In this document: piece after piece, positions 1 through 64,000 of the stretch
How positions within the stretch are numbered: position 1 is the first letter of the stretch
How the letters are laid out: every line of letters starts with the position of its first letter
From: Amoebophrya sp. A120
Taxonomy: Eukaryota > Protista > Dinoflagellata
Assembly: GCA_905178155.1 (NCBI GenBank)
Contig: CAJINV010000001.1
Span: 155,079-219,078 of the forward strand
Length of the DNA stretch: 64,000 bases
Direction of reading: 5' to 3'
The notes under the pieces: generated by a model
What the model saw: only the letters and a program-made list of their open reading frames with translations
Databases searched by the model: none
Told to the model about the DNA's origin: nothing
Made by a program: the position numbers and the translations under genes

Positions 1-2340
1 TGCGCCCGAAAAGAGGCAGGCACAGCCCCCCGGCAGGCACGCCTGCGGTTATTGCGCACGTAGCCAGGCAAGCGGCCGGCCCCGCCCCGGCGGGCGGCCG
101 GCGCTACGTTGTCGCATGCGCCACCGGGCAGCGGATTCACGCCCCGGGGGCGCCGGTGCGCGTGTAGCTTGCTGCGAACCAAGAGAGGGCGCCCGGGCTT
201 CGGCGGTTGCTACCGACCCCCTGAACTTGGTTGGCGCGTTGCGCCGTTCGGGGCGCGTGCGGGGCATGCGCTCCGCGTACTCCACACTTGCGGCGGCCGG
301 CGGGCTCTTGGGGGCCCGGGCGCCGCTGGGGTTGGCGTCGGTTTGCCCAAACCCATAGACGGAAGGAACACCCGGCCCGGCCGCGCCAGTCCTTCGCCCC
401 CCCCGCCCGCGACCGACCTAGACCGGGGCCACAGTGTGCCGGCCGGCAACAGCCGCGCGGGCGTGGCGCCTCCCTGCGCACTGCTGAGCCCGGGCGGGGG
501 AGGCGTGTTATTGGGGCGCCGAAGCGATTCCGCCGCATCCGCCAGGCGCCAGCCGGCCGGGGCCGGCCTGTCTGGGGGCCTCCCGCCCTCTGATATGGGG
601 GCGCGCCTGCATGTTGGGCCCCGCCGGCCTGCCTGCGCGCCTGGAATACCGGGCGGCGCCGCCGCGGGTCTACTTCCTACGTGCCGGCGGCCCGATTGCC
701 ACCCGTCGTTCGTCTCGCCCTTCGCTCGCCCTGCGCCCCACCCTGTGGGCCGGGATTGGGCGATCTGTTTCGTCTCTATCTGGTCAGCCGGGGCCTGTGC
801 GTTTGCTGTTTTGCTTTTCCGACAAGCATACCGTGCGGTCCGACGTCGGACCGCATGGCACGCTCGACACCGTTTCGGGCGGGGCGAGCCATGTTGGGGC
901 GCCGGGCGATGTGGTTGGTGCACGGGCGGAACTGCGCCCCTGCGTGCGACGTAGGGGAGGGGACGTCGTGGGGGCTTAGTTACCCTCGGGGCCTGTTTGC
1001 TTGCTACGTGTGGGGCTGTCGGACGGTAAGCCGCTGCTGCGTGTGCCCAGCGTGCCAAATATAGCCTCCGTGGCGGAGGTGGTGAGGTCGGTGCCGCTGG
1101 CTGCCTTGCCCGCCCGCCGGCCGTTGCCCTGGCCAGCCACTGTGTCTTTTTTCTGGGCCCCCCGTGCCGCTTTTGGTATGGCCATGCCGCGTGGCTTGGC
1201 CGTCTTTTGGAAAGCATGGTAGTTCTTTGCCAAATTTTCAGAACCCCTGTCCGAAAGCTAGCCCTGGCGGTATGGGGCCGATCCGGGCGCCGCGGTGGAG
1301 CGCCCTGAAACCGAAGGCAAACCGGTCCCATGGCATGGGGATTGGCCTCGCGCGCTTGGCGCGCTTTTGCTTTTCTGTGTTTTTTCTTTGCGCGCCGGCA
1401 CCCTTTGCAAAGCTTCCGCCGCATAGAAACCGGCGAAAAGGCGGCGGCCGCTTTCGCGGCCGGCCAAATGCTCCGAACGGAGCCCCGGCCCTGTCGTGCG
1501 GCTTCGCTTTTCTGATTTGCCGCGAGTTTTTTGGGGCGCTCTTTTGCGCGCCCCAAATCGCCAGAACCCCACGCGGCCGGCGCCTCAGCGGGGTGCCCCT
1601 TTTCTTTGTCGGCCCTCCTGTGTCGTTAGTATTATCAGCCGGCGACCGATAGAACCCGGCGCCGGCGGTTCGTTGAAGTCAAACAAAGCCCAACAGGCTG
1701 GCGCGCTTTGATCTTCCTCATGTGGAAAAGCGCGAAACAGCAGCACACACCGCCGGCAGCTTTTGGCCGGTGGTTGCTTTGCATTAAGAAAGCTGCCAGG
1801 GTCGGGCCGTTTCGCGGTGGCGGCCCGCCGGCGGCGGGAGGCGCGGGCGGGCGCCGCGGTTCGCGGTGTTTGTGAGGCTTGGGCGCGCGCGTTTTTTGGC
1901 GAGGGCGCGTGCTGCCCGGTGCCCGGTTGCGTCGGGTTTAGGGTCTGGCGGACCGGCCCCCTTCCCTGCGTCGGTAGCCCTCCTCCTAGTCCGTTCCCGG
2001 GTAGGCCTTCCGGGCCTGGGGGGGGGCGGGTGGGTGCGATGGGCGGTCATGGCCTTTTTCTTTAGGGCGCCCGCGCCGGCAGCCGTTGGCTGGGTGCGGT
2101 CGGCGGGTGCCCGGCGCGCGCACGCTTCGGCGGGTTGAAAGGCGGTCGCTCGGGCTTCGCCGATCACCCGCGGGACAAGAGGAGGCGTCGGCGCCCAAGA
2201 CCTCGCAGGCGCCCCTGTTCTGTCGCTTGGAGTATCTTCGCTGCGTTTTTTCGTTCTGAGTCGCATTACCAAATCGTTTTCAATGCCCTGAAATCCTGAA
2301 AAGTCAAATGAAAAGTTTTGGAAAAGTTCGAATCGCCCGC
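1..2340. repeat. GC-rich interspersed repeat or non-autonomous element, truncated by the window start; partial second copy at ~37795-38480
   Basis: Collinear shared blocks with 37795-38480: GCGGAGGT(G/A)GTGAGGTC, CCCAT(G/A)GCATG(G/C)GGATTGGC, CAAATCGCCAGAA. Sharp switch to AT-rich DNA at ~2450. No credible protein. Confidence 0.6.
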
Positions 2341-40016: not shown

Positions 40017-41825
40017 CACTCTCGCTTCATCCCGGCGTGGACCTTAGCGTCACAATTCTCAACTTTTCCTCGTGGACCTAAATTTGCGCACTATCACCCA
40101 CGCGCTACTCTTTTTCTTTGAAATTCAACCAACACCAGGCGAGATGCACGGTAGGGCGTCGGCAATATCCTTTTCCTTCCACATAATTGCTTCTCATCGT
40201 GCTTCATAGATAAGAGTAAGACACGAGAGAGTTGATGTTGGATATCGTGCGCCGTATGAGGCAGATGGCACTTGCAGTTCAACATTGTCGCTCTTCCACA
40301 GAAAAATAAAGAACACATGCCCGCTGGGCGAAGCACACCTGGCGGGGCCACCCTTCGCAGCGCCGGCCGTAGTTCCGCTATGATCGTGGCCGACGGGGAC
40401 GGCGTGTTTTTAGTGCTTTGCTCTACCTACTACTTTTTTTTACCTAGTAGGGCTTATTTTGCTTTCCGATCGATTTGCTGTTGGCTGGCTTCAGCACTCC
40501 AGGAAAAAAGTTCCGCGCCATCAACAACTTCGGCTTTTTTGATCAGAAGGCGCTTTTGCAGCATAATTCTTAATAGCCAAGCAATCAAATCGTTGCACAA
40601 AGGGCAAGAAGAGCTGGCGCTTGCTGAGCTGTACTGCCTTAAACCTTTCGGGTGACACTTTTTCGTAGAGGAATTGTTTCTACTTCCAAGAATATTGTAC
40701 GGATTTCTACATCAATATGGTGTGTCTGTCCCTTACAAGAACTTTTTTTTGGTTACACGAGGTAGCAGATTTTTCACCCTTGCGGCCTTCGCTGGTACTA
40801 ATATCCGCATTGATATACAACTACGTGGTGGATTCGTTTACTTAATCATGCAAAAACAAAACTGAAAGTATTAAAATTGTTGTTGTTCATGATGTTCTCC
40901 TGTTGTTATTTTTTATGAAGACGCAATTTCAAATCAATATCAATACTTCTAAAGTTGGAGACTATAATTTCATCATCAAAACTTGGTCTGACTGCAGTTC
41001 CGATTCTAGGAAAGAACGAAGTAACGAACTCGTCCCACTAGGAAAACAGATTCGAACTCAATGTCAATAGTGTACTAGATTCCGCACGAAAAATAAACAG
41101 ATTCAAACTCAATAGTTTTAGTTTCGTTGTAGTAATGGTACATAATTAGAAGATAGAGATACTCAGAGACAGTTACAAAACCCACATCAACAAGCTGGAT
41201 GTGGAACAAGCTCAATAAAGAACTCAGTACCTTTCTAAAGTAGATTCTCACTTTCGATATATCCGTTTACGTAGAGGTAGATCATGATCATCGATGACTT
41301 GAATAGGGCAATGACAATAGTTAGTGGTATGCATAGATGAAGAGGCATAAAAAAGACCTACACTTCTATTTTTTCTTTGAAACACTCACACAAAACAAAC
41401 CAGACGAAAACAAGCTACAGCATTGTCCTCTGCCTCCGACCGCAGACAATTGTTGTTGTTCGTGTTCCTGTATCGGACGAAAAGGAAAAAGCTCCTGCTT
41501 CATTCACTATGGCGATTGGTTCTGCAGTAGACCGCGCATCATGACAAGTTTGCTTTCTATCCTCGCGGCATGAAAGAGAAAATGTGCTATGCAGCGTGCT
41601 TCTGCTTCCTGAAAAGGGAGCGGGTAACCTTTGCTGTGAATTTCGTACCCCACTCTAAGAGTCTCTTAGTAGTTTGAGTTTCTTACTCACGACTTACAGA
41701 GAAGAACGTGTGCGTGAAGCAGCTTGTTTTCGTTTTTCTCGGGATACAATCCCAATCGTCCGGGTTGAAAAGCTTCACATCCCCCCCCCGTTCTTATCGG
41801 CACTTGGTCGTGCACGACCAGCTTC

Positions 41826-44800
41826 TCACGGTGCTGCCATCTCGACGCCTTCGCCTTCTGCAGCGACCTCGCCGGCAAGCTCCTTCATTTCCGCTTTGTC
41901 CGGCATAATCATCCCCTTCACGGCATCGAGCAAGCCCTATCAGAGTGCACAACCGCGTGGTCCCAACCGCCTCTCAACTCATTTACATTTGTACTACTGC
42001 ATGAACAACAACATCAGAAGGGTCAGCAAGAGACAGAAAGAATGCAGCTTTTCTTTCATGAAAAACTTTCACAGGATTGTAGTGGTCTTTGGGCTCCTCC
42101 TCGCTCCTGCCAGAATCTGTGATGCTGACATTTCCAAGGGGTTGCAAAAAAACAAAGTGGAAATTTGCTTTGGTATTTTGCATGATGAAGACAAATGAGG
42201 GGGAGGGGGCCGACGAGTTGTGCAGCACTTTCATAAGCCCAAGAACGCCGGCGCGAACACGAAGCCGGCGAGCCCGGATTTGACCACCACCAGAATCACC
42301 ATCGCCGGGTAGATTTCGAAGGCGAGCGAGGTCGAGAAAATCAACAGCACCAGCTGCTGGACCGCGGTCGAGAGGAAGGCGGTGAAGACCGTCAACCCCA
42401 TGTCCTGCACCGCGGTCTCCGTGCGCGCGAGACCCCCACCCGAGGTGGTTCGCGAGTATGCAAAGGCGTGCACAATGTGGATGCTGTACTCGATCTCGAA
42501 ACCCAGGGCCATGATGATGACCGCAAACACGATCACATCCAGCTTCACGTCGAAGGCAGACAGCAGCCCCACGATCTGCACGTTGACCACGAGCATGAGG
42601 ACCCCAATCATCAGACCGTAGTAGGGGTGCAGGAAAAGCATCATCATAATCGTCACGGCCAGGGTGACCACGAACAAGTACTCGGTGAGCTTGTCCAGCA
42701 TCTCGTCATCCCTCTCGCTGTTTTCGAAAAACGACGAAACCACGAACGAATCGGACTCGCTGCCCCACAAGTCGGGTCTGGCGGACCGCGCGTTGTCGAT
42801 GATCGCCTTGATCCGCTTCATGGCGTCGGTCCGCTTCTTCGGATCCAGGGGCGCGCGGCACGCAATGCGCACGGTGGACGAGGTCATGCCCTCGATCATG
42901 CGCCCGTTCCCGTTCGCTGGCGCCTGCATGGCCCACACAATGTTGCGCCCCTGCTCGCGGCCCCAGTAGCTGACGTGCGGCTTGGTAATGTCGGGTTTCT
43001 GCTGCACGTGGGTAGGGGACATTATGAACTGTAACAGTATCGTACTCGTCGTAAGTTCAGATAGAAGTATTGCAACACAAATTAGCTTAGCATGACAAAT
43101 GGAATTTCTCATGCTGGTTTAGCTTGAAAAAGACACTTGTCTTGCATGACTGCAATTAGTACGAGTACGATACTTTTGCAGAGGATAGGCATGTGGGAGG
43201 TGCAGCACGCGTCCTGATTCACGTCCTCGTACCAGGCATGCATGTACTCGTAGAACATCTGCGGATTGTCTTCCCAGTACGCGGTGCGCTTCTCGTAGTG
43301 GGATTGGGTGAAGGCCGGGCAGCTCTGCTTCTCGGTTGAGAAGGTGTTGTGCAGGTTGTACTTTTCATCCTTCAAGGCCCGCATGGTAAAGATCAGCCAG
43401 TTAGGCACCGGGGAGACGGTGACGTTGTTGGCGATGTGCGCGAGAAGCGCGTTCATGTCCGCGAACTGACTGATGTCGGACTGTATGCATTGCAAAAGTG
43501 TCCGGGTCTGGAAACTTGTGATGCAAGGAAGGGAGTAGTGAGCTCACTGTAATGCGCTGCAAAGCATGACAATTTTTTTTCATGGTTCTGAGTTGCGTAT
43601 TCCGCATGAGAAGCTGCGTTTTTGCATGACAGGGAGAAGGAGCTCTTCGCGGCCACGCAATACAGAGCTCAGAGTCATGCCAGGCTAGCATGACAAATCT
43701 CGCAATCTCCCAGACCCAGACATTTTTGCATTTGATAGACTGCGGGCTGACGGGGTCCATCGAGTACAGCAGTTGGTACTGGTCCAGGGCGTTGGCCGGG
43801 GCGGTCGCGGAGAAGCCCCCATTGTACACCTCCGCTAGTTCGTAGCCCCCGCCCCCGACCATCGCCAGCTCCGGGAACCCGAGCCCAACCGCCTGCAGTT
43901 TGGCCGCGGTGTCGGTGGTGTTCACGCCCTGGGCGGTGAGGTATGAGTGTGCGCAACTCCGTGCTCTCCTCCTCATTTGTATTCTACTTATTTCCATTTG
44001 CATGAACAGCAATACAGACCTCAGCAGATATGAAGCCTGTGCATGACAAGTTCAGGCACCGTTTGTAGAAGTTGTACAACTGCTTGAGCTTTGCATTTGC
44101 TCCCCGGAACAATTTGTCATGCAAGCAGTGCCACAAGGGAGCAGTTGCAGTGCAGCTGGGTTCGGAGATCTGCATGACAAATGAGGCGGAGGGAAAGTTG
44201 TTGTGCACTCTCGTATGAGGAGCCCGTTCAGGTACGCGTCGTTGATACCGGTGAAGCGGAAGCTGTTCCGCCCCCGTTTGCTGGTGCCGGTGAAGTATCA
44301 AATGCAAATATCGATCTGGGTCTGGGAGATCATGAGATTTGTCATGCTGATATGTTGGCATGACCCTTAACTCTGTATTGCGTGGCCACAAACAGCCTCC
44401 GTAGCCGTCATGCAAAAACGCAGGTTCTCAAGCGGGATACGCAACTCAGAAGCACGGATGAAAAACTTGTCATGCTTGGCAGCACGTCGCAGTGTGCTCA
44501 CTATAATTCCCTTCCTTGCATCACAAGTTTCCCGACCCAGACATATTTGCACTGGATATGAAGAGCGTGTTCGTCGGACCCGCGGCGCCGTTCAGCAGCG
44601 CGATGTTCTGGGCCGGGTTGGCGATGAAGGGGAGGCGCTTGTTCCCCGTGTTCATGATCAGGTTCATGGGGCAGACCTTGCAACCCAAGTGCGTCGCCGC
44701 GGACAGCGGCTCCGACGCGAGGAAGTTTCCGTACAGCCCCTTGTGGTGCACCTCAAACTCCTCCAGCCAGGAGAACACGCCCGGGACCCCCACCGGATTG

Positions 44801-47800
44801 CTGATCGGGTCGTTCTTGATCTGGTTCATCACGCCCAGAAAGTAGTCCCGATTCGCCTGCTGGTGGTATTTGCCCAGGTGCGAGGGCGGCATGTAGACGG
44901 TGATGAAATCCGAGTAGCCGCCCATGTCCTCCAGATGGTCCAAGAACTTCCGGGCCTTGGATTCCTTGTCCAGATAGTCCTTGCCGTTAAACTCGACCTT
45001 GACGTCCTCAAACATCACGGCGCCCACGCACAGCAGCGCGATCTCGACGCAGATCACAAACGCGATGCAGATTTTGTTGCTCACAATCTTACTGAACATG
45101 GCGTCTCCGGAGGTTGTGGTTAGCAATTTTCCCATGTTCTGCTGCACCTGCTTGTCCGTCCAGTTGCTAGCTGTGGTCGTCTATGCACTGCAAAAGTACT
45201 ATCGCACTCGTACACGACATCGCAATCACGCATTGCAAGTCCCTTACTTTCTCGAGGTAGATCCGCATTACAAATTCCGCTTCTCATGCTGAGGTAATTT
45301 GTCGTGCGATTTTTACTACGTACGATACTTTTGCACACACGATATCGTCCCCGTCTCTTCGGACCGCAAATGCTCTCCGCCGTACTTCTCTGCGAGGACG
45401 AACCCCCCGAGGAAAACGGTGAACAAGGTGATGTAAAGGCCGATCATGCCCAGCGCCGTGTGCCAGCAGAAGTGGCGCAACGCCAACACCTCGACGATGG
45501 ACCCGAAACAGTAGCCGACGAAGATCGCGAGGCAGGAGAGCAGGATCGACCGATGCGCGTACCCGACGGCCTGCTCCATGCGCTCTTCGAACTTCAGCTT
45601 GGGTGTGAGTCGGTCGTAGGCGCGGACCAGAATAATGTCGTAGTCCACCACGATGGCGAGCAGCAGGTGAATGGCGAGCGGTGACATCACGGTCAGGGCA
45701 AGTACGCCGTCGTCCTCCCCGTCCTTGTCCACATCCCCTCCCATCGCGTATCAAGTGCAAAAGTGTCTGGGTCTGGAAGTCTTCCATGCATATTTTACAT
45801 AACCCATGACGCCTGTAATGCATGGCCTAGCATCACAGATTTCTAAAGGGCCTTCTGATGCGTATTCCGCATGAGAAACGCCCACTCCGCGTCGCACAAA
45901 CTGAAGAACTCCTCTTGCTGGTCATGCAATACAGATTTTTTTTACCTTCTAAAGACAGCATCACAAGTTGCAACCTTCCAGACCCAGACATTTTTGCATT
46001 CGATATCGCGTCCCACATTTCGATCGCGCCGATGCCCCAGGAGAACAGCACCGCCAGGATGGGCTGGATCACGACCAGCGCGGCGACCGCGGTGCGGGCG
46101 GGCTTCAGGCCGTTCGGGCCGCCTTCCGCCGAGTAGCGGATGCCGATCGCGCAGATGAGAAAAAAGATCATCAGGAAGAACGTCCCCACCAGGTTGCCGA
46201 TCTCGTTTGTGATCACGCGGACGATCTCCATCGCCAGCCACTTGCTGTGGAAAATGAAAACATCGATGCCCCTGTCGTACAAAGCCTTCCACTGGGACTT
46301 GCTCGGCGGGTCGTCGTCCTTCTCGATGCCGTAGTTGTCCTTGTACTCCTCAATGATTTCATCCACCCACTCCTCCCGGTCCTCCAGGGACAGTGCGTTG
46401 CGGTTCGACACCCGCCGCCACTCGTATGACAGTGCACAACTCCCCCTCCGCTTCCCCTCATTTGTATGGCATGAACGGCAATACAAGCGCCAGCGAGAAT
46501 GCAGGTTTTGCATGACAAAATGAAAATTGCACCGGATTGTAGTGCTATTAATTTGGGCTGCTAGAGCTTGTCATGCAAACAGTGCTAAGAGGCACAGCCT
46601 GATGAATTGGGCACTTTGCATGACAAATGAAGGGGACGAGGGGGAGTTCTTGTGCACATTCATAACTCGTTCCGGTTCAGTTCGCACTCCGAGCGCAGGT
46701 GGTATCACACAGAAAAAAGCTGGCAGGTCATATTTGTGATGCAAAAATAAACTGACAAAAAGATTTGTATTGCATATCGTTAATAGCATGCTATGAGGCC
46801 GCCCATCATGGCAGATTTTTTTGTGTATTTATTTTTGCATTACAAATATGCTCTGCCCGCTTTTTTCTGTGGGATAGGCGGACCAGGGTGAGGAAGGTTT
46901 CGCAATTGGAGATGCGGTACGGCGCGAACTTGCGGTCGGAAGCCAGGTAGGCGAGGCAGCCCTGACACTTGGTCGGGAAGGTGGCCACGGCGGCCCGGCC
47001 GCCCAGCACCGTGGCGGCGTTGGTGGCGTCCTTGGTCGCGTCGCGCCACGTGTGCACCGCCGGGTTGGCGCACGAGTCCGCGTGGTCGGTGCAGGTCTGC
47101 GGGCACATTTCCGCGGTCATCTTGTTCAAAAATTCCGGCTTGATAGTGCAGCCCCCCACGTCCGCGGCGCACTTGCACGCCTTCTCCGGGACGCCGTCGC
47201 AGCCCACGGTTTGCACGGCCGAGTTGAAAGCGATCCGCTCCGAGGTGTCCACGCAGGAATGGCACCCGGGGGTGAGTTTTCCGGCCCCGGCGGCGTTGAT
47301 GGCGCTCACCGGGTTGCCGGTGGCAAGGTACACGGCCCCGGCGGCCAGGTCGTAGCGGTTGTTCAGTAAGTCCAGGTAGGTTTGCAGCTTGGTGTGCTGG
47401 CACCCGATGGCCAGGCAGCTCTGGCGGCACTCCTCCTCCGCGGTGGTGTTGGCCCCCGCCCCGTAGGCGCACTTGGTCTGCAGCGCGGCGTCGCCGCCGT
47501 AGGTGCTGCACTGGGTCTGGTCCTGCTGCCCGACCATGAAGGCCGGCTCCAGCTGCGCACAGAAACCGGGCGCGAGGCTCTCGCAGCGCGCCTTGCACGC
47601 GTTGCCCACCTCGTCGCACTTCGAGTAGGACCGCATCAGGCACATGGCGGCGGTCACGTCCGCGCAGCTGTTCACCGTGCTGGGCTTCCCGATAATGGCC
47701 GCGAGGGCAGTTTCGTCGTCGGTGCAGTTGCATCAAATGTAAAAATGTCTGGGTCTGGAAGATTGCCAGGTTTGTCATGCACATTTTGCATAACTCCTGA

Positions 47801-50071
47801 TGTCTGTGATGCATGCCCTGGCATGACAGATTTTGTGAGGGGTTCCTCATGCCTACACCGCATGACAAATGCTCTTTCCGTGTAGCAAAACTTGGACTCT
47901 CTCTGCTGCTCATGCAATACAGATTTTTTTAGGATCCAAAATCAGCATGACAAGTTGGATTCTTCCAGACCCAGACATTTTTACAATTGATAAGTTGCCG
48001 TACGAGTAGGTCGTCAACTTTCGCAATATCGAACAAAAAAGTGTTAACGTTAACGGTTTTCTTTTCATTTCTTAGATGGCAGTTATGCATTACAAATTTT
48101 GCCTTCCATGCATGTTACGCAATACAAATTTGGGCACCTTTTCTGATGCGTTACTGCATCACAAATTCCGTTATACGTTAACGCTTTTTCTTGTGATACG
48201 CAACGCCGCCCGTTCCTCCTCGTCGAGTTCGTCCACCTCCTGCAGCATGCGCTGGCGGCCGCCGCGGGCTTGCAACATGGCTTTGATCGGCTGCACCGGG
48301 CAGGTGGTCGAGGTGTAGCCCGCCGCTGCATCCGGGGCTGTGCAGTCCGCTTGGACGGACGCGTCGCGGATGTCCTCGTGTACGACCTTCATCAGCAGAG
48401 AGCCCATGTATCCGCTCATGAAGGTGCGAACGGGAAAATTGGAAAGCGCGAGCCGGGTGGGGCCGTCCCAAACGCCCACCAGCGGCGCGGCGGTGTAATT
48501 CAGCATGGCGCCGAAGTGCCGCGGGTCGTTCGTGGAGCAGGACAGCTCGCCCAGAAGTGGATTGGCCAAACCGATCGTGGACAGCCAGCTGTCGGTGGCA
48601 CACCAATATTGGTGGTCCATCTGGTCCGAAGGCACCCCTTCCTGGGTCGTCGACTGGAGACAGGCAGCTTGACTGGTCACCTGGCCGTCCGCCTCAGTGA
48701 CTAAGTCCATGCATCCGGACAACGGATCCGCACGGCAGTAGGGAATGGTGCGGACCTAAGAAGGTAGGGGAGGCAATAAAGCTGGTTGGATATCATAATC
48801 ATTTATCATTTCTTTTCCTCGTTCAGCGTTCGGGCTCGTCGCCTCGTCCTTTATTACCATCCATAATGATGGGTCGTCGAGAAAACAAGCAAGTAAAAAT
48901 GTGGTGCGAACTAAATTGTCTATTTCAAGTACGTACTTACCCCGTAGGCTGCGGTCATTCTTGCAGTGTTGCAAACGTCCGCTGCAGCAACGGTGCCGGC
49001 ATCCGCGCACTGGCACCCGCGCTTCAGCGCAGAGCTCACGTAGACACTGCCGGAGTACTTGCACACCGGGTGGATGTGTTCTCCCTTGTAGGTGCCGCAA
49101 GCGGCCCGGTGCCACTGCGAGGTGGTCTTGTAGTCCATCTTCGTGTTGAAGGGGCAGAAGTCGGGCCGCCACGCGTTGCCCTTTTTGGTCCTCCGGGTCT
49201 GCACGTACTGCTCAAAGTTCCAGAGTTCCTGCAACGCGGGGGTCTCGCACAGCCCGGCGTTGGTGCCCGTGGGCTTGTTGCGCATCCGGAACAGGAAGGC
49301 GAACGCGTCGCCGTCGGACTTCCCGGTTTTGAGATTTTTCTTCAGGCACTGCGTTTCGTAGTCTTTCACGCCGTAATCGCGCCCCTTCCACGTGTCGTCC
49401 CCGATGGCTTCTTTATACGAGATCCGGCCCCCGGTGATTTGCTGCTTGATCGTGTCGTACTTCTTGCTGGTGTCCGACTCGCTGGGCGAAAACACATCGT
49501 AATCGCCGCGAAAGACGAAGCCCTTGCCGATCTGCGTGGGGCCGCGCTGGCCGTCGCCGAGCGCGATGAAGAAGGGGATCGCGAAGAGCAGCGGGATAAG
49601 ACACCCCAGCGAGATGCAAAGCACCGGAAACTGCACCGCCATGCGCCCGTAGGCGCGGCCGACTTTCAGCGCGGCGCTGTCAATCGCCGCGCCGACCAGG
49701 GACAGGGGGTCGTCCGCCACCTCGGGTGGAGCGGGCATTTCGCCCATTACTTGCTCCTTTTCGGGTGCTACTGGTTCCGCCATCTTGTTGCTGTTGGCTT
49801 CCTCTAGTTGAACGTTTACAACCTCGACACCACCAGCACCAGTCGGGCCACTTGCTTCGCCTTCAGCACTTCCTTCTGCACCAGGTGTAGGACCTCCTTC
49901 TTGGTTCCCCGCTTGTGGATCTTGTTCTTGATTCACCTGTTCTTCTTGCCCGGAACTGTTATTTTCGTCTTGGTTTTGCCCGCCTGGGGCAGCTTGGGGC
50001 GATTCTGGTGCCAATGCGTCAGAAGTCAAACCTGCTCCTTGAAGCTCTTGGTCGGTAGTTGCGGAAGACAT
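41826..50071 (-). CDS. Patched/NPC1-like (RND, sterol-sensing domain) membrane protein, 13 exons
   Basis: Two hydrophobic TM bundles with the motifs LAIVVDYDIILV and ALGFEIEYSIHIVHAF..VQDMGLTVFTAFLST, separated by large luminal loops. The junctions checked rejoin in frame (SHM-SPTH, PQS-DISQ, TLF-TGTS, AYG-VRTI). Confidence 0.85.
41938..42235. mobile_element. Introner family C
   Basis: Perfect DR AGCCC. Confidence 0.85.
43023..43187. mobile_element. Introner family B
   Basis: DR GACAT/GGCAT; IR AGTATCGTACTCGT / ACGAGTACGATACT. Confidence 0.85.
43484..43737. mobile_element. Introner family A
   Basis: Perfect DR GACTG. Confidence 0.9.
43942..44215. mobile_element. Introner family C
   Basis: Perfect DR TGAGG. 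Confidence 0.85.
44296..44558. mobile_element. Introner family A, inverted relative to 43484-43737
   Basis: Perfect DR TGAAG; interior is the reverse complement of the 43484 copy. Confidence 0.9.
45182..45344. mobile_element. Introner family B
   Basis: Perfect DR TCGTC. Confidence 0.85.
45749..46005. mobile_element. Introner family A
   Basis: Perfect DR TCGCG, ~30-bp IR. Confidence 0.9.
46425..46664. mobile_element. Introner family C
   Basis: Perfect DR ACTCG. Confidence 0.85.
46703..46876. mobile_element. Introner family D
   Basis: DR GGTGG/GGCGG. Confidence 0.85.
47731..47992. mobile_element. Introner family A
   Basis: Perfect DR AGTTG. Confidence 0.9.
48027..48198. mobile_element. Introner (TATC..ACAAAAAAG.GTTAACGT ends)
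   Basis: Perfect DR CGCAA. Confidence 0.85.
48756..48940 (-). other. Canonical GT-AG intron
   Basis: GTAAGT...TTCTTAG, no IR, in-frame join AYG-VRTIPY. Confidence 0.85.
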
Positions 50072-50819: not shown

Positions 50820-51019
50820 ACGCGGCAAGCAAAGCGAAGGGGGCCGGTTGCGAAGCTTATTCTGGGGCGGCTTCGGCGGCCGGCGCAAAGAAAGCCCCCG
50901 CCCCTGGATGGGGATGAGACTCACGCTTCCGGGGGCTTGTTCGCGCGGTTTTGCCTCGCGCCCCCCCGCCCATGCCATGCACCAGAAGCCGAGAGGCAAA
51001 AGCGTGCCCGGCCGAAACG

Positions 51020-53629: not shown

Positions 53630-55036
53630 TAGACGAAGAACGGTTGTACTTCCTTGAATTGGGGTTGGGTAGCTTTTTATTTTTCGTATTGTTATGCTAT
53701 ACTGTTACTGTACTACAATCAACGAAGGGACGAACGTTCCCAACACTTGCTGATTGATATTTTGGACCGGTGCCTGTGATAAGACACTTCTGCTGGATTC
53801 CTCGATATCGATAAAGGTATAAGCTGTAGCTGATCTAACTATCGTTCCATAACGATAGAAGTAGAAGGCCACTGAAGAGTAGAGTCCACTACTAGTAGAG
53901 ACGGAAAATTATATTACGACTATTGTACAGGTGCAGTCTGCACGAAGCAGACTTGGAAAATAAGAGGAAAATGTAATATTATACACGCTACTACGCATCC
54001 ACCTGGGAGCGATAGTAGGGGAAAATCGGCCTGTTCGAAGCGATTTGCGATAAGAAGTGATGGCTTTCTCAGTTGGAGACGAGACACGAAGGGTCATCTT
54101 CGACATAATATCAACACCAGCATCTTCTGCGACCGCTTCTTGTACTATCTATTTGCTACGAGACCACGAGCACAGCTAGACTGCATTCCTCTCAACGACA
54201 GGCCGCGATTTTTCGATGTACTGTCGACCGAGTGCCTGTGCCCACGAATTTTCATACCTACGATATCGAGCTTGCTTCGTACTTTTCTTTTCTGTCAAGT
54301 TCAGCGACAGGCGAAGGCGATGGGAAGTTGCGTTTTATTGTTGCATAAGCTGCTTAAAAGCTCTTTTATGTTTATCCGAAACTTGATGTCCGAAAGAACC
54401 GAAAGCTGAAATTTCCGTCAGACTGGGTACCGCGCTCTATTGGCGTGCGCGTGGACATACAAAGGCAGCCGAGTAAAATCTTGTGACCGTGAGACGCTTG
54501 TTTCTGTTCTCGATTCGATTCACAGCTTCAGGCTGTAGAACACAACTAGGGGACCACAACTAAGCTGGAAGCCCGCAAGAGCTATCACGACCAGTTCTCG
54601 TCGTGTGTGATACGAGTACGAGTTGAACTGATGTAGATTACTACTTTAACTTTTACGCTGCTACTATCTTTTCAGAACTGCACTGCTTGTTTCAAGAGCA
54701 CAAGCAAAGTGATTCTCGTCCAGTGAGAAGTTTGGCTGAGTTCTAAACGACTTCTACCAGTTGCAAAATTTAGTGTACGTTCACGTAACTCCCGAATATG
54801 AGCTGTCTACTATGCGCAACATGGCTCGCTATCGCTATGTTTGTTTTTTCCTCGGTGTCAACAACATCTTTATGTGTGGCGCAACATCAGCGCAAGACCA
54901 AGTTCGAAGGGATCGTGTCACCATTGTAGTAGATGCAACTGGAACTGTACCAGGAGATTTGTGTAAGTATAGCACGAGCAGCTCCAGACATCAAGTTGCA
55001 AACTGTATTCCACCGTGTAGGAAACATGTTCGACGT

Positions 55037-58000
55037 TCAGATGTAGATTTGCGCGGCCCGGTCTGCCAGTGCGGCAACGGCGCTCGTCGTGCGGCCTTCG
55101 TCTTGTTCTTGAGCTGATTTCATTCTGTTCAACCGTTCCATTTCGGCGAGCGCTGCAGCCTTTACCGTGGTCCGCGCGTTGCGCTCTTTGCCCATAACAA
55201 CGGCTTCTTTCTGCGAGATCCAGCGGTGCAGTTCTTCGTGGTGTGCTGGTTCTTCTTTGCCAACCTGATGGCTGGTGGTGTACGAGCCGCCCTTGATGAT
55301 GTCGCCTGCAAGAACTTGTTTCGGGATGCGAAAGTGGTCACCGGCCTCGGCGACGATCCGAGCCTTCCACTCGTCGGACCATTCGTTGTTGCCCACACCA
55401 CTTCATTCAGTGCAAAAGTACTACCGCACTCGTTCTCGTAGTAATTGCAGGCGTGCATCTGCATGACTTGACAAAGCTCGCTTCGTAGGTCAATGAGCAA
55501 TACAGACTCCATTTTTCTAGGTGAAAAATCTTGCAATGCAATTTCTACCAATACGATAGTTTTTCTATGCATAAACTGCCCTGAACCACGTCCGCCACTG
55601 GGCCCCCCATGTCGCTGCCGCCGTGATCGTGCCCCGCCTGCGCGGGAAGCACCTGATGTACCAGTAATACCGTATGATTGTCATGATCATGAATGACTGT
55701 ATTGGACACAGTGCCATTCTCCTTCTTTTCAACATCGATGATACTGATAGGCTCTCTTCATCAGCACGGACACGGTTTGTTCCATGTACAGTACTATCGT
55801 TCCCGCTCCTAGGCTTTTTATGCAGACTACTACAAAACTGAAATTGAAGAGAAGACCTCACCATAAAACAATGAAAACACAAAGTACTACATGGCGATAC
55901 ACATACGTTACCTTCACCCCGTCCCTGTAGGTGACCGTCAAGTAGACCCAGAGTTTTCATGCAAGAAAAAAAACTTTTGTGGCGGTAGTCCCATGTATAT
56001 CGAATAAATTTCTCATGCGCCACTATCTTTAGTGTGTATGGTTGTCCCTGATGAGAAGAGTAAGAGACCACTCTGATTGACTATTTCATCCTGCGTGGCC
56101 ATACGCGTCAGCGTGACTGTGTTGCATGTTCCGCTTTAAAAATATGCATATGGCTCTTATTCAGATTAAAAACGATCGTCTACAAAGTTTCTCCTGGATA
56201 GTTCCTGCCAGCGCTTTACCGTCATCATCGTCATGCCCGTGGACTCCGCGGACAGAAACGCACTCCGCGCGTTTCTATTTTTCATGCCCAGCGCCTGCTT
56301 CTCGATGATCCTTTGCAGTTCGAAGTGGGCGGCCTCCAGCGTTTGGACCTCCTTCGACACGATGGGCGCCAGAATGTCCCACTGTGCGAAAATATGCTCT
56401 GCAAAAGTATCACATTCGTTTTCGTACTAATTGCACATGATAAATCTTGTTTTATCTTACCCGAAGCTGCACCTGCATTTGCAAATTCTAATTCCATCTT
56501 TCTTTCTGAAAAACTTGGTTGTAAAAATGCAACTTATACGAGTACGATGCAATATGCTTTTGCAATTCATAGTACACCCGGTTGGCGACCAGCTGGTTGA
56601 GCCAGAACAGGCTGGTGAAGGAAAAAGTGTTAATATCCGACGAGGACGGGGTATCCAATGCAGCTTGTCCTGTACTACTAGTTGTTTCCTCGTCAGCAAC
56701 ATCCTCTTCAAAGCACCGGTCCTCGGTTCTGGCCAACACGCGCCGTTTCTGCTCCTCGAAAGTCAATTCTTCGCTTATTTCATCTTCCAGGACCGGTTCG
56801 AGTGTCATTTTATCTCCTCCTTTCTTCGCATTCGCAGTTGTCGGGAGCAAAATGCTGGCGGTAGTTCTTTTCGAGGAAAGTGCGTTTTTAATATTTTGTG
56901 ATGCCGCCACGCCAGTGGCTGTTTTCGATGTCCTCGTGCACGGTTTCTTCTTGTTCCTATTTGTATTTCCTCCTTCACTTTCCCCGCCCGACAGCCCCGG
57001 GTTTTCCAGCGCTTTTGGCACGGTTGCGAATGCGTAAAACGGGATGTGCACGGAAAACCGCGTGTCGTCAACGCCAAACCAGAAAACCCCGCCGACCTCG
57101 TTCGGCAGCCAGTGCCGCATTTCCGCGACAAAGTGCCACGCGGTTTGCTGCGTCCCGATAGACCGCTCGTTGGCGTAGGATTCGCCGGAGTAGTATGAAG
57201 ATGAATAAAAGCCTCCCTTGCTCCCTATAACCGAAACAAACTGCTGAATTTGCATAAGTACACAGCTCTGTAGTTTTGCAGTCACGGATTGCAGCCAGAT
57301 GGTGCAGATCGTTGGCCTGTCTCAGGGTCAGGGCATGTGCGTCTTCTAGTTGTATATTTAGAATAGCACATGCCTGCGCCAGCCTGTTCTGTACTTAGCT
57401 GGTGCACCAGCTGCAGCATGAGTAGAAGTAGTAGTAGAAAAAGAAATCGCTGGCATTATAACGATTTGCGGCGACAAATGAAACGTGGTTGCAACAGTTT
57501 TTCTTTTCAAAATTGTATACAAGAAGGAGGTACGCTTTTTCCTCAGGAGATACGTAAGACCAGGACAACGGCCGATCGCGGTAGTTTGCGCGCCATGGGC
57601 CCATACCGACGTCAGAATTCATCTTCAGAGCGGAATCCTCGAAGCTGTTTCGCATTCCAAGCATCAGGTCCTTGGCGGCGAGCTGTAAAATGGATTGGAA
57701 TCGGAAGACCATGACTCGGTGACGCCGGACTTCTGGTTGTTCTGCCCTTAATTCATTGCATTCTAATTTCACGTGTTGCCTAGGCCTACTTACAACTTTT
57801 TGCACAGCATCATTCCACCTTCAATACCTTCTTTTTCACCGGGACGGAGAGCGGCATGCGCGTAGTCGCGCTCGTGATGTTTGCACCGAGCACGTACTTC
57901 TCATACTTCTTTTCGAAATCCGGAATGCTTGTCACCCGGCTGAAGAAGGACCAAACCCGTGCGTCCGACCAGCGGGCGCCAGTGAAGCTGATGGGATCGT

Positions 58001-59784
58001 ATGCCTGGGCCCAGTTGAACGGCTCTCCCTTGGACGGGTCATACAGGCCGACCTGGATTTTTGTTTTTCATTCTTCTTCTTGTACAGCTTATTTTAGGAA
58101 AAGATTAGCCTGAAGAAAAAGATGATAATGATATAAGAAACGGAAAATTCTCAGGTGTACTACAGCTACAGTGCATAAACCTTCACCTTGGAAAAGTATC
58201 TATGAGTATCCTCGAAAGAACAAGCCAAAGTCGCCACAATGTGGACTCAACTTGTTTCCAACTTGATGCACTATTTTTTTACCTTTGTCGCGAAACTTTC
58301 CACATCGGGCGCGGCCCGGCAGTTTGCAGTGTCCTTGACGTCAAAGGTCGTGATTCGTGCCTGGTTCGCGTGCCCAGCCACATGCCCGTCGGGGACCTTC
58401 ACCGCCACCCAGACGGCCCCCTTTTCGTACTTGCCCTTCCCGTATGAGAGAGCACAAAATGCTCTCCCCCTCCTCTGGAACATGAAGGCGAGGCCAGTGT
58501 TTCTGGCCTCACCTTGACAGAGGCAGTACCACAGATCATGTAGTGCCTTTATTCGCATGACATAAGTAAGTAGACATACTATCCGTTTCTGCATGACAAA
58601 TAAGGGGGAGACAAAGTAGTGGCTCACTCTCATATCCCGATCATTTCCAGAATCCACACCTCCGTCGGGTCGGCCAGCGTGAAAGACTCTTATCAAATGC
58701 AAAAGTGTCTGGGTCTGGAGATTTGTGATGCTAAAACAACCGCACCGACACTGCCATTGTCCAGCATAGCTTTGGAGGCAAGCCTCCGCAGGCTCTGGAG
58801 ATTTGTGATGCAAGTCAGGGAACTACAGTGCGCACACTGTAATGCACTGCCAAGTATGACAGGTTTTTCCGTGGTTCTGAGTTGCGTATTCCGCATGAGA
58901 AACTGCGTTTTTGCATGACAGGCAAGAGGTGCTCTTTGCGGCCACGCAATACAGAGCTCAGAGTCATGCCCGACTAGCATGACAAACCCACACTCTTCCA
59001 GACCCAGACATTTTTGCAGTTGATAACTCCCCCTCGGAAGCATATCCTTTTTTCTCAACCAAGGCCGGCATGATCTGGAGGGCCTCCTGCACGGTCTTCG
59101 CCCGCTGCAACGTCGTCCAGATCAAGTTCCCGTAGTCCATCACTTATGCACTGCAAAAGTATCGCATTCGTAGTAAAAGTGATTGCAGTCATGCATCGTT
59201 TTCATTAAGGGCATGGGCAATCCGCATTTCAAGTTAAGTGCATTTCTCACCACGCCAAGCAAATTTAATATTTTTGTGCTTGTGATGCTATTACTACCTA
59301 CGTACTAGTACGATACTGTTGCAATTCATATCACGGCCCCGGGCTGGCCCTGCGTCAAAATCGGTACGCCGCCAAAGGTGGTTTCGCCAATCGTGAGCTG
59401 GTACTCGTTCATGTTACCCACCACGTCGTACGTGGCGGTCGGCTCGGGGATTTCTCCCAGATACATCCCGGAATCCCAGTCGTAGATTTTCTTCACCGTC
59501 CCCGCGGGGATGTTTTCCCGCTTTTTGTACCGGCCCAGCGAGCCGTACAGGCCGGCACTGTCGGCGGCGTAGGAATACAGCGTCGCTCCGTCGGTACTCG
59601 CGCCTGGTGTGACAATCAGGTTCGTGCAAGCGTCGGTAAAAGTAGTTCCGGCTTGGAATATCAACAGTAGGTGGAGCAGACTTCTCAAGGCTGCTACAGC
59701 CGCTGCGCCACTGGTCGTGGTCGACGCTGCACCAGAGCCGGCTCCGCAACTACATGCTGAAATCTGGTGACCGCGAACGCGCAT
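55037..59784 (-). CDS. Peptidase family C69 (dipeptidase A / secernin-like Ntn hydrolase) with signal peptide, multi-exon; 3' end approximate
   Basis: Hydrophobic leader, then CTNLIVTPGASTDGATLYSYAADS (nucleophile Cys), VVGNMNEYQLTIGETTFGG, DYGNLIWTTLQRAKT, GES-FTLADPTEVWILEMIG, GHANQARI, NERSIGTQQTAW, GGVFWFGVDD. Confidence 0.88.
56393..56571. mobile_element. Introner family B
   Basis: TATGCTCTGCAAAAG...CTTTTGCAATTCATA; removal joins NRVY to AQWDILAP. Confidence 0.7.
58443..58634. mobile_element. Introner family C
   Basis: Perfect DR TCCCG; removal joins EMIG-KGKY. Confidence 0.85.
58691..59025. mobile_element. Introner family A
   Basis: DR ACTCT/ACTCC; removal joins GES-FTL. Confidence 0.9.
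59145..59330. mobile_element. Introner family B
   Basis: DR TCACT/TCACG; removal joins PGAV-MDYG. Confidence 0.85.
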
Positions 59785-60454: not shown

Positions 60455-63400
60455 TCAATTCCACGCGAGCACTTCCTCTCGGAAGTTGGTCCTCACCCGG
60501 GCGATTGCCGCCTCGATGTCGCCGTAGGAGTAAGTTATCCAGTTCGTCGCGTTGTCGCTTTTTCTCGCCAAGCGAAAGTCAAAGCCTAAAGGATTTGGAT
60601 TTATTTCTATTTCAGCATTACATTCTTGTGTGGCCCTTGAAGTCGTGGACCACGTAGCAGGTGAAGTTCCCTTTCCCAACAGCATCCGCCGCAGGTGTCC
60701 CGCCTCCCAGTCTCCCAGCTGGAAATCCGGTGGCATCATGATGGACTGATTCTTCCCGTTTGCGATGCAGTGCAAGGTCGGGAACAACCTGGCGTGGCGC
60801 ACCAGACTCCAGGCCACGCCCGCGGGCATGTAGCGCTGGTTTACCCACGCAACTTCGCCGGAAACGTTATCGGACTCGTAGCTGCCTCCGTAAAACTTGT
60901 GCCCCGCCTTGCTGGTGCCGAACAGGTCCCGGAGCGCGTAGAAGCAGTTGCGCTGCTCCGCCGGGGGCTGGCGGTGGTGGAAAAACTTTTTGAAAAATTC
61001 GCCTGGGACGTCCATGTGGTCGCCCTCGGCGAAGACCGCGAGGACTTCGACCCGAATGAAGGTGTCTGCATCGATCTGGTACAGGCCAGATTTCTTGTCC
61101 ACGGCTGCATAGAGGAAATCCCGGAACCCGCTCAGCGTGTTGCAGATCGACTTCTCCAGATCCAGCTTCAGCACGACTTTCAGGGACCTTCGCTTCCACG
61201 CGCAATGGTGTCTGCGATTGTATTTCCGGAAGTGGTAGTTGACGTGCTCGAATTGCACCCAGTGCGGATCAACATCTGCACAGAAGGCTTGGTCTTCATC
61301 CTCCGTTTGCTGTTCTTCTTCTCCGTCCGTAGTTCTTGTTGGTGTTCTTGAATCGTCCTCGTCGTGTTCATCTTGTATCAATGGTTCGAGGTTTTCCATT
61401 GTTAGCTCCTCATCCTGTTCAACATCACCCGATGTCGTTTGGTGGTTGGACGAGGAGGATTTGTAGTTCTTTCTCGTCCCGCGACCACTCTTCCTTACGT
61501 AGAAGAGCCGCCCCCACTGGACCACACGACCCGCTCTTGCTCTATTTTTTCTTGAAGATGCCCTGAGTACAGGTGGTGCATCACCTACATTGCTGTCGTC
61601 CAAAATGGTGGAAGAAGTGGTTTTCAAATGCGAGGGTCGTTGTGCAGGACGATCGTCGTGCTCATGCCGCCGCGGGTCTGTCCTCTCTACTGCGCCAGGA
61701 TTATGCATAGCATCGTCATTCCCGGTCGTTTTACTATTCTCCGCCTCCTCGTCGAGTTCTGCTAGCACATCCCGTTTCTTTTTTCGCATATGCAAAGCAA
61801 ATATGTTCTCCGGTTCTGGAAACTTGTAATGCTGGATTGGGAATAAGAAATGCTCTGTGGTGCACATCGAAGCATGAGAAGTACAGCAGTGTCTGCGCTG
61901 CTTAGTGTTGCGCTTTCCGCATGACAAACTGCACTTTTGCATGACAAACAAAAGGGTCTCTTCTTAACACGCATCGCAAACTCAAACTCTTCAGTCATGC
62001 CAGACACGCATGACAGACCTTGCATTATCCTTCCAGACATCCAGGGTGGATATCTGCATTCGATATCGCAGGTAGTTCCGCAGCACTTCGTCCAGGGATT
62101 TTTTCACAGTCCAGGCGAGACCGTACCCCTCGGTTCGGGGGGAAAATGCGTTTCGTAAAGCAGAGTTCGCCTGCTCCAACACGTGATACACCTCGTAGAG
62201 CCCAGAATTGTCTTTGAAGTCGTTCTATGCAGTGAAAAAAAAATATTTCCGGGTCGGACAAAATTCTGCAGCTCTTGGTTTATTTCCAGAACCAGATCTT
62301 CATGCAAGGTATATTACATGACAATCTTCTGCAGCTGCAGTTTGTTTTCCAGACCCAGACGCATTTATTTCATTTGCATTTCATACATTCATCACTGCAG
62401 TCAGCGGCCAAGCGTCCTCCTTGTGATCATCCTCGTCGCCGTCATCAGTGGTTTTACTAGTACCACGATCATTTCCAAGACCTCCAGTCTTTTGCGCTGA
62501 CCAGAGCGCGAGCAGATACAGCGTTAACTTGTCTTGCAGCCCCGGATTGTGCACGACCGCGCTGTCTGAACTGTAAATATGTCTGGGTCTGGAAGGTTGC
62601 GAACTTGTGATGCATAGATACTTAGATCACACAAAAATCTGTCATGCTTGGACAGCAAATAAAGGAGCTCTTTGTCCTGTCGCCGAAACGAGGCGTTTGT
62701 CATGCGGATTAGGCATTGGGAAACCGTATCCAAACCTGTAATGCTAGGCCTTGCATGGCGCACCTTCTGTGTCAAGCAGACACAGCATCACAAACCTCAG
62801 CAATCTTCCAGACCCAGACATTTTTGCATTTGATACGCTGCGAGCGATGTGGATCGCATTCGCCAGTGCCATTTCGACGGAAAGCGTGTCGAAGCCCTGT
62901 TTGGCGGCAAGTAGTATCGCAAGAAAAAACTGCTTTACTGTAAACTTGGGATACATAGAACGGAACGCAAGTGTGTTTGTCTTGCTACACATGCAACGCA
63001 TTGGATTTTCCCTTAGGAAGCACGCATGCCAAGTTTTCTTTGTCATGTGTAACAAACTTGTGACGCAGATCTTGCAAAATCATCACAGTGAAACAGTTTT
63101 TTTGTGGGATAAGTAGCGAGAAGTAGCCAATATTGGCCCCCGCATCGAGAAACAGTGTGTCGCTGTGAAAGGAAAAAAGTGTGTATACAGAGTAACTCTA
63201 CAACTTTTGGACGAAAAGGATTATGCAACTGTGTTTGGCATATGACACCTGTCATGCGCAGATAGTACAACGTGCGAACACGTAAATTAGTATATGAAAT
63301 AAGGAACGGCGCTGATGTTGCACCATGTCTAACATGACGAGCATGAAAAGAGTAAACTGTAAACATGGATTCTCTGCATCACAGGGAATTGTAGTACACG

Positions 63401-63913: not shown

Positions 63914-63929
63914 TTTATCACTCCCCGCG

Positions 63930-64000
63930 TACCCTTACCCGAAACCACTCCAGCGATACCCTTACCCGAAACCACTCCAGGGTTTCCCGGTTTCCCGGTT
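63930..64000. repeat. Short tandem repeats at the window edge
   Basis: ACCCTTACCCGAAACCACTCCAG twice, then (GGTTTCCC)n. Confidence 0.7.

What the first reader, a model, noticed from the sequence alone, without database searches (positions are those of the whole stretch)
43484..44558. The same introner in opposite orientations in one gene, implying orientation-independent splicing
Seen: the interior of 44296-44558 is the reverse complement of 43484-43737 (GGCCACGCAATACAGAG vs CTCTGTATTGCGTGGCC; TCTGAGTTGCGTAT vs ATACGCAACTCAGA). Both have perfect DRs and both must be removed to keep the ORF. Known: spliceosomal signals (5' site, branch point, 3' site) are directional. Inference: recognition relies on the symmetric terminal stem and symmetric motifs, pointing to a structure-guided, possibly non-spliceosomal excision system.
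Basis: partly seen in the sequence, partly recalled or inferred. Interest (0 to 1): 0.88.

Follow-up and report, generated by a model that had tools for sequence, protein, structure and literature searches.

The report
Amoebophrya introners spliced in both orientations
Two copies of an already published mini-transposon intron lie back-to-front in one gene of the plankton parasite Amoebophrya and both are missing to the base from its likely transcript assemblies, probably because the two ends of the element carry the same signal, which a direction-aware and likely loosened spliceosome would read either way round.

Summary
Observation confirmed. 43484-43737 and 44296-44558 are one family in opposite orientation (215 of 252 aligned columns identical). 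Both have perfect 5-bp direct repeats and both must go to give a 1827-aa sterol-sensing-domain protein. A database holds that exact protein, labelled Amoebophrya sp. A120. Presumed RNA contigs skip both; a DNA-like run does not. These are the published A120 introners. Both orientations are common: in 175 strand-called relatives the rarer orientation makes up 66, and neighbouring same-family pairs are 31 same to 35 opposite. The inference is only partly supported. Excision is directional: all 19 RNA junctions fit one cut, one base before the 5' TAT and four after the 3' ATA. The scan found this rule before on other pieces of this genome. Direct repeats are dispensable, there is no G-U over A-C excess in the stems (295:309), and either-orientation introners with ordinary splice sites are published for Polarella. 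Symmetry of the transposon ends explains the result without a non-spliceosomal system. A modified spliceosome (0.55) is favoured over a structure-guided nuclease-ligase (0.3); neither is shown. My searches found no paper on orientation or register for these introns.

The parts
43484..43737 (.). Introner E1 (TAT...ATA, 254 nt, terminal inverted repeats of about 45 nt), family A, the commoner orientation relative to the host
43480..43738 (-). Inferred intron for E1 at the -1/+4 register (259 nt). Length shown by RNA contigs; position inside the perfect repeat inferred from other junctions
43479..43483 (.). 5-bp target-site duplication, left copy (E1)
43738..43742 (.). 5-bp target-site duplication, right copy (E1)
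44296..44558 (.). Introner E2 (263 nt), same family, opposite orientation
44292..44559 (-). Inferred intron for E2 at the -1/+4 register (268 nt)
44291..44295 (.). 5-bp target-site duplication, left copy (E2)
44559..44563 (.). 5-bp target-site duplication, right copy (E2)
41748..50071 (-). Host gene from the start codon (50071) to the end of the listed RNA contig: 1827-aa sterol-sensing/Patched-type membrane protein with 11 coding introners and one GT-AG intron (48756-48940)
43023..43187 (.). Introner of a second family; its mismatched repeat restricts the cut to offsets -1 or 0; opposite in orientation to 45182-45344
45182..45344 (.). Second-family introner in the same gene, opposite orientation to 43023-43187, also skipped in RNA contigs
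41471..41746 (.). 3'-UTR introner with decayed repeats (1 of 5). Alone pins the -1/+4 cut; starts GT but is cut one base after a nearby AG
   Evidence: (loose end and contig start)
55404..55573 (.). Introner with decayed repeats in a peptidase C69 gene; excludes offset 0
56393..56571 (.). Introner with decayed repeats; allows only offsets -1 or 0
57194..57552 (.). Introner with weak terminal repeats; excludes offset 0
58691..59025 (.). Family A copy in E1-like orientation, skipped in RNA contigs
62565..62835 (.). Family A copy in E2-like orientation, skipped in an RNA contig of depth 3.4
45749..46005 (.). Family A copy in E1-like orientation in the host gene, skipped
47731..47992 (.). Family A copy in E1-like orientation in the host gene; removal follows from contig coordinates (its joint row was not listed)
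   Evidence: (table 8)

Best explanation
These are non-autonomous inverted-repeat transposons with 5-bp target duplications that occur in both orientations in genes and are absent from presumed RNA contigs either way; they are likely removed by a modified U2-type spliceosome that reads the same terminal sequence at whichever end comes first. Steps: (1) Insertion by a DNA transposase, largely blind to gene direction and target sequence. Anatomy and orientation counts are shown; the enzyme is inferred and not found. (2) Both ends begin TAT-N4-TGCAAA-like on their own strand, so each orientation gives a transcript reading N-UAU...AUA-NNNN (shown). (3) The cut is directional: one base before the 5' TAT and four bases after the 3' ATA. 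This removes exactly one repeat's worth of sequence and restores the mRNA (shown for 19 junctions, all in minus-strand genes). (4) Intron positions +2 U and +3 A match the same positions of the four RNA-confirmed GT-AG donors here, while +1 and the 3' dinucleotide are free. I infer a spliceosome that has dropped the G(+1) and AG requirements and places the 3' cut at a fixed distance from the element end. The end-to-end hairpin may help bring the ends together, but it is not shown to be under selection as RNA.
For: Both orientations removed in presumed RNA contigs: family A 4 versus 2 copies, second family 1 versus 2 confidently oriented copies. Single register -1 across 18 listed joints and pinned alone by a 3'-UTR copy that bypasses an AG. 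At that register 0 of 19 junctions are GT-AG and first and last bases vary freely; the target duplication shows no G or AG bias in transcript orientation. Terminal TA is broken at the transcript 5' end in 3 of 214 and at the 3' end in 12 of 214 (p 0.035). Five such 3' changes break the pair with +3 A, one of them in an RNA-spliced copy. No G-U excess over A-C in stems: 295 versus 309 in 187 elements. Weak end duplexes in spliced copies 41471, 55958, 57194 (z -1.8, -1.1, -2.3). The published genome study reports 83 of 89 spliceosomal proteins and U2, U4, U5, U6 in A120, with U1 snRNA not found. Precedents: Fritillaria TIR-derived non-canonical introns need the U2 spliceosome; Polarella TIR introners work in either orientation.
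Against: No lariat, branch point or snRNP dependence was or could be tested. A spliceosome cutting with neither G(+1) nor any conserved 3' dinucleotide has no precedent that I found; Fritillaria keeps specific end dinucleotides. My branch-point candidate, an internal GCAT-N-AC motif 40-50 nt from each end, is not enriched in sense near the 3' end (113 versus 129 mirror copies of 214), nor in 66 noisily predicted GT-AG introns. Both E1 and E2 fold into strong end-to-end stems (z -3.7 and -4.0), as do most spliced copies. Seven of the 12 3'-end changes are A-to-G and would keep a U-G pair, which fits a structure model equally well. The per-position polarity tests are not significant alone (p 0.07, 0.22, 0.25).
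Confidence: 0.55

Rival explanations
1. A non-spliceosomal, structure-guided endonuclease plus ligase recognises the end-to-end stem and cuts it with a 1-nt 5' and 4-nt 3' overhang.
For: No conserved terminal dinucleotides at the register; an AG one base from the 3' cut is ignored; strong predicted stems in both orientations; U1 snRNA not found in A120; euglenid TIR introns are released as circles by an unknown route; no branch-point motif found.
Against: No G-U over A-C excess and no better end duplex in the transcribed strand (96 versus 91, p 0.71). Spliced copies with weak stems or an unpaired +3/-6 position use the same register. The terminal three pairs of E1 have predicted pairing probability 0.03-0.04. 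Orientation independence is also found in introners with ordinary splice sites. No candidate enzyme was looked for.
Confidence: 0.3
2. A hybrid: a dedicated RNA-binding factor, perhaps derived from the transposase, binds the symmetric subterminal motif or stem and hands the ends to the spliceosome's catalytic core in place of U1 and U2AF.
For: A GCAT-N-AC motif lies 40-50 nt from both ends in many elements of unrelated families (87 of 214 at the 3' end, 97 of 214 mirrored at the 5' end). The genome paper proposes a novel protein subunit.
Against: The motif is strand-symmetric (361 sense, 394 antisense), as a DNA-binding site of the transposase would be; 55 of 214 elements lack a sense copy within 120 nt of the 3' end.
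Confidence: 0.08
3. The joints are reverse-transcriptase template-switch artefacts across a hairpin flanked by direct repeats, or reflect excision at the DNA level.
For: Hairpin plus direct repeat is the recalled recipe for such artefacts. The runs are only guessed to be RNA and are contigs, not reads. One contig of depth 3 reads from exon into element 61789-62065 and no joint was listed for it.
Against: Copies with decayed repeats (1 to 3 of 5) are skipped at the same register. All 11 removals are needed for the ORF, and homologues P0002 and P0003 run through both sites without an insertion. The same contig also lacks GT-AG introns. The DNA-like run X7 shows none of the listed exon-exon joints and has contigs crossing exon-element borders.
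Confidence: 0.04
4. Self-splicing ribozyme introns.
For: The invariant A at position -7 (0 changes in 203) recalls the bulged A of group II introns (recalled).
Against: No Rfam match in 41000-64000. Interiors of 8 unrelated families and both strands are spliced alike, so there is no common catalytic core.
Confidence: 0.03

Closest known systems
Introner elements of Amoebophrya sp. A120 (Farhat et al. 2021, PMC7789003; read: abstract, passages, sections 10-12, 16, 36, text search of the supplement)
   Same: 8-20 nt or longer inverted repeats starting TAT + 7 nt + AAA, 3-5 nt direct repeats, about 240 nt, repeated families, non-GT-AG ends, hairpin. The database protein P0001 with this label equals my reconstruction.
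   Different: Nothing in kind: these are members. The paper's text does not treat element orientation (the 2 of 4 main-text and 2 of 3 supplement uses of the word that were shown concern genes; 'strand' 0) and leaves the splice position relative to the hairpin variable or unknown.
Introner-like elements of Polarella glacialis (classes 2, 3, 6, 7, 8, 10) and Aureococcus (bioRxiv 10.1101/2020.10.14.339549, passages; the Aureococcus paper itself was not held)
   Same: Transposons with target duplications that create introns in either orientation.
   Different: They carry or recruit ordinary GT/GC/GA and AG sites, so they need particular target sequences and show an orientation bias. Here the target sequence is free and no canonical dinucleotide is used.
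Non-canonical introners of Fritillaria borealis (bioRxiv 10.1101/2025.08.15.670264, Introduction and passages; PMC11282704 section 6)
   Same: TIR transposon ends serve as non-GT-AG splice sites; the U2 spliceosome removes them.
   Different: Fixed end dinucleotides (mostly AG-AC, AG-AT) and U1 conserved. Here both cuts fall in the variable target duplication and U1 was not found.
Nonconventional introns of euglenids (PMC11282704, passages and section 6)
   Same: TIR stem joining the ends, cuts offset asymmetrically from the stem, TSD-like repeats, mechanism unknown.
   Different: CAG/CTG at +4..6/-8..-6 and a pyrimidine|purine junction bias, released as circles. Here TAT/ATA at +2..4/-7..-5, free junction bases, product unknown.

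Membership tests
Amoebophrya A120 introner elements | Terminal inverted repeat starting TAT, 7 looser bases, then at least three A | tested here: met
   All four ends of E1 and E2 against the description
Amoebophrya A120 introner elements | 3-5 nt direct repeat at the exon-intron boundary | tested here: met
   Perfect 5-bp repeats; 134 of 157 family A copies with both flanks
Amoebophrya A120 introner elements | RNA-supported removal without GT-AG | tested here: met
   the runs are presumed RNA
Amoebophrya A120 introner elements | Repeated family with hairpin-forming ends | tested here: met
   158 unique family A copies; folds z -3.7 and -4.0
Amoebophrya A120 introner elements | Host gene belongs to that organism | tested here: met
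   P0001, 1827 aa, source label Amoebophrya sp. A120, 0 differences from the reconstruction
MITE / non-autonomous TIR DNA transposon | TIRs, fixed-length target duplication, short and non-coding | tested here: met
MITE / non-autonomous TIR DNA transposon | Autonomous partner with matching ends and a transposase | not tested
   No whole genome held; 20 window ORFs gave no transposase hit in Pfam
U2-type spliceosomal intron | GT/GC-AG termini | tested here: not met
   0 of 19 at the inferred register; none in any register for E1 or E2
U2-type spliceosomal intron | Directional branch point near the 3' end | tested here: inconclusive
   Candidate motif not polarised; invariant A at -7 (0 of 203 changed, p 0.25 against its partner)
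U2-type spliceosomal intron | Lariat intermediate and snRNP dependence | not testable with these tools
   Only contigs were informative; the raw-read run gave 5 reads
Polarella/Aureococcus either-orientation introners | Intron creation in both orientations | tested here: met
Polarella/Aureococcus either-orientation introners | Canonical splice site carried by the element or recruited from a biased target duplication | tested here: not met
   Flat target composition; G first in 62 of 214 versus 61 mirror; AG last in 10 versus 8 mirror
Euglenid nonconventional introns | CAG/CTG pairing at +4..6/-8..-6 and pyrimidine|purine junctions | tested here: not met
   TAT/ATA at +2..4/-7..-5; first base A 6, T 5, C 5, G 3 of 19
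Euglenid nonconventional introns | Release as full-length circular RNA without lariat | not testable with these tools
   Needs RNA experiments
Group I / group II self-splicing introns | Conserved catalytic core matching Rfam models | tested here: not met
   0 matches in 41000-64000

The most novel reading that the evidence does not exclude
Amoebophrya runs a second, dedicated splicing machine, non-spliceosomal or U1- and U2AF-free, that reads transposon ends as a ruler (-1/+4). It erases any insertion at any site, in either orientation, from the mRNA without a trace, which makes this transposon superfamily invisible to the proteome.
Probability: 0.3. Interest if true: 0.85.

Novelty: already known. 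Interest (0 to 1): 0.45.

Why it matters
How Amoebophrya removes the more than 60% of its introns that lack GT-AG is an open question in print. Orientation independence together with a fixed directional cut, a free target sequence and dispensable direct repeats narrows the signal to the terminal few bases. It gives exact junctions for lariat, circle and end-chemistry assays. It also explains why these transposons can spread through exons: any site and either direction restores the message exactly, a freedom that Polarella-type introners lack. The elements themselves are published; the orientation data are an addition to a known system.

Tried and rejected
No whole genome was held, so genome-wide counts were replaced by 138 metagenome loci found with a family A end motif. 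These are capped, selected by that motif, not RNA-tested, and not shown to be the same species (element copies up to 94% alike, no exon overlap with the window among the longest hits). Splicing efficiency by orientation cannot be measured from contigs. Branch-point idea for the GCAT-N-AC motif: not supported; the prediction of GT-AG introns is noisy and I give it little weight. G-U versus A-C test for RNA-level selection on the stem: negative. A homologue search for a plus-strand gene, meant to read the register on the other strand, found nothing, so all RNA-checked junctions lie in minus-strand genes. An element-intrinsic register (-1 in one orientation, -4 in the other) is disfavoured but not excluded: 5 of 5 junctions able to tell exclude -4 (chance 1 in 32), and E1 and E2 themselves cannot tell. 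The protein atlas was unavailable for the 6625-8088 ORF. The Aureococcus paper was not held. Supplementary figures S14-S25 of PMC7789003 (snRNA alignments, repeat positions) and bioRxiv supplements could not be seen and may bear on register and orientation. A scripted check of the empty site in the paralogous gene copy was left out, so that point rests on reading by eye.

Full report
Observation. The two elements are real and related in opposite orientation. 43484-43737 aligns to the reverse complement of 44296-44558 with 215 of 252 columns identical (score 319 versus 27 in the same orientation). The interiors alone score 183, against at most 3 in 500 shuffles. Interiors are not palindromic, so orientation has a meaning. 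Each element begins TAT, ends ATA and has a perfect 5-bp direct repeat.

Host gene. The gene lies on the minus strand from 50071. Removing 11 such elements with one repeat copy each, plus one GT-AG intron, gives 1827 aa; retaining any one element, or both copies of any repeat, truncates the ORF. A database protein of 1827 aa, P0001, labelled by its source Amoebophrya sp. A120, is identical to the reconstruction when the transcript-5' repeat copy is kept. It carries sterol-sensing and Patched domains. Homologues P0002 and P0003 align through both insertion sites without extra residues.

RNA evidence. Of 11 runs offered I laid five. In X1 one 5926-nt contig, and in X4 one 4500-nt contig, skip 259 nt at E1 and 268 nt at E2. 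X7, which looks like DNA (even exon depth of 20-30, contigs crossing exon-element borders), shows none of these joints; raw-read run X9 gave 5 reads and no information. X1 and X4 are only guessed to be RNA, but the X1 contig also lacks the GT-AG intron, and X1 has no cover over most of 54044-58515. In 53700-64000 nine more element joints were listed. One family A copy, 61789-62065, had no listed joint and a depth-3 contig reads into it; one joint row was not shown. By profile scores, RNA-skipped family A copies are four in the E1 orientation (43484, 45749, 47731, 58691) and two in the E2 orientation (44296, 62565). A second family has 43023 against 45182 and 55404.

Orientation among relatives. 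No genome was held. A family-end pattern found 138 metagenome loci (capped, species identity not shown). They and the window hold 158 unique family A copies, 134 of 157 with a perfect 5-bp duplication. A wider scan gave 268 unique locus elements. Eight families of three or more were kept and 32 singletons or pairs dropped; orientation was consistent on 6106 of 6106 edges in family A. Host strand was called with a codon model, which was right for 17 of 18 window segments and 12 of 12 at margin 10 or more (seeded from window genes, so not fully independent). Among 175 strand-called of 242 locus family members the counts were 58:36, 14:10, 7:10, 2:11, 5:6, 4:6, 2:2 and 0:2; the rarer orientation totals 66. 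Family A (p 0.03, motif-selected sample; 24:19 with junction-level calls) and one small family (p 0.02) lean to one side, neither after correction for eight tests. A test free of the codon model agrees: same-family neighbours in one locus are 31 same and 35 opposite, in an organism whose genes are reported to lie 98.5% in co-oriented blocks. So a strong bias with an unspliced minority is not seen. These locus copies are not RNA-tested and some may lie outside exons.

The cut is directional. With perfect repeats the junction can slide, but mismatched repeats fix it. Across 18 listed joints the only offset allowed by all is -1: two exclude -2 and below, two exclude 0 and above. A 3'-UTR copy at 41471-41746, with 1 of 5 repeat identity and no reading frame to preserve, allows only -1; it starts GT yet is cut one base after an adjacent AG (from the loose end). 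The intron therefore reads N-TAT...ATA-NNNN. At this register 0 of 19 junctions are GT-AG and the end bases vary freely. The target duplication has no G or AG bias in 214 oriented copies. Direct repeats are a by-product of insertion, not a signal: seven RNA-skipped copies besides 41471 have 3 or 4 of 5 identity. A plus-strand gene with four elements, three with strongly decayed repeats, gives one 840-aa ORF under the same rule (frame only). I reached this register before consulting earlier scan notes, which report the same rule on other pieces of this genome (unchecked AI notes, not independent support).

Sequence or structure? Both elements fold end to end (z -3.7 and -4.0), as any TIR element must in either orientation. 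If the stem were selected as RNA, G-U pairs should exceed A-C pairs in the transcribed strand. They do not (295 versus 309 in 187 elements; end-duplex energy favours sense in 96 and antisense in 91). Three spliced copies have weak end duplexes. The terminal TA is broken less often at the transcript 5' end than at the 3' end (3 versus 12 of 214, p 0.035). In family-assigned copies, 7 of the 12 3' changes would keep a U-G pair and 5 would not, and the A at -7 never changes in 203 (single positions not significant). This leans towards directional sequence reading of U+2, A+3 and perhaps A-7, but weakly. U+2 and A+3 also stand in the four RNA-confirmed GT-AG donors. A shared internal motif 40-50 nt from each end is strand-symmetric and not enriched where a branch point would be; it is more likely a transposase site (inference).

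What is known. The anatomy matches the A120 introners of Farhat et al. (PMC7789003; abstract, passages, sections 10-12, 16, 36 and a text search of the supplement). They report hairpins, non-canonical ends, most spliceosomal parts present, U1 snRNA not found, and an unknown mechanism. A U1-70K homologue is reported for A25 (PMC12787238, passage). Introners that work in either orientation with ordinary splice sites are described for Polarella and Aureococcus (10.1101/2020.10.14.339549, passages), and one survey pipeline allows for opposite-orientation copies (PMC9860276, passages). Fritillaria shows that TIR-derived non-GT-AG introns can be spliceosomal (10.1101/2025.08.15.670264, Introduction). 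Euglenid introns show the possible non-spliceosomal alternative (PMC11282704, section 6). PMC12130899 (passages) lists A120 introner origins and does not treat their orientation. Eight literature searches found no paper on orientation, register or lariats for Amoebophrya introners; subscription journals and supplementary figures were not visible.

Verdict. The elements belong to a published system. Orientation independence follows from TIR symmetry and does not by itself point away from the spliceosome. The unusual part is the combination of any site, either orientation, no canonical dinucleotide and a fixed -1/+4 cut. Modified spliceosome 0.55, structure-guided nuclease-ligase 0.3, hybrid factor 0.08, artefact or DNA excision 0.04, ribozyme 0.03. 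Novelty: already known, with an added property. Interest 0.45.

Noticed in passing
window 3264-3313 and 13650-13699: 50-nt inverted arms 10.3 kb apart (I13) enclose plus-strand genes without Pfam hits, next to AT-rich DNA and 9-nt tandem repeats; possibly a large mobile element. One gene (8880-12230) reconstructs to 840 aa; my trial reconstruction of the other (from 3709) stopped at 308 aa.
   Followed up: partly
window about 14800-21500 and 27400-37400: Two diverged copies of one minus-strand gene region carry introners at mostly different positions. By eye the copy near 16370-16400 lacks the element at 29172-29480 and has a single copy of its 5-bp repeat, i.e. an empty site.
   Followed up: partly
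window 26758-27042, 31258-31507, 32491-32725 versus 32909-33145: A third family shows opposite orientations within one region; not RNA-tested.
   Followed up: partly
window 58691-59025: This 335-nt copy appears to have a duplicated left end (a second end-like segment near 58791-58869 pairs with E2's end, I2) yet is skipped as one unit.
   Followed up: no
window 24848-25271: 207-nt inverted repeat, 91% complementary, with a 10-nt loop (I1); possibly a foldback element.
   Followed up: no
window 51000-53600 and 34460-34800, 35970-36330: A degenerate tandem array of about 46-60-nt units, and two low-complexity hexamer-like arrays.
   Followed up: no
window about 54650-59800: Minus-strand peptidase C69 gene with introners and GT-AG introns, covered in X4 but hardly in X1 and X2.
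   Followed up: partly
all element families, window and loci: TIR positions 4-7 often differ between the two ends of one element (pairing 36-78%) while positions 1-3 and 11-13 pair in 95-99%, so the terminal stem is interrupted just inside the TAT.
   Followed up: partly
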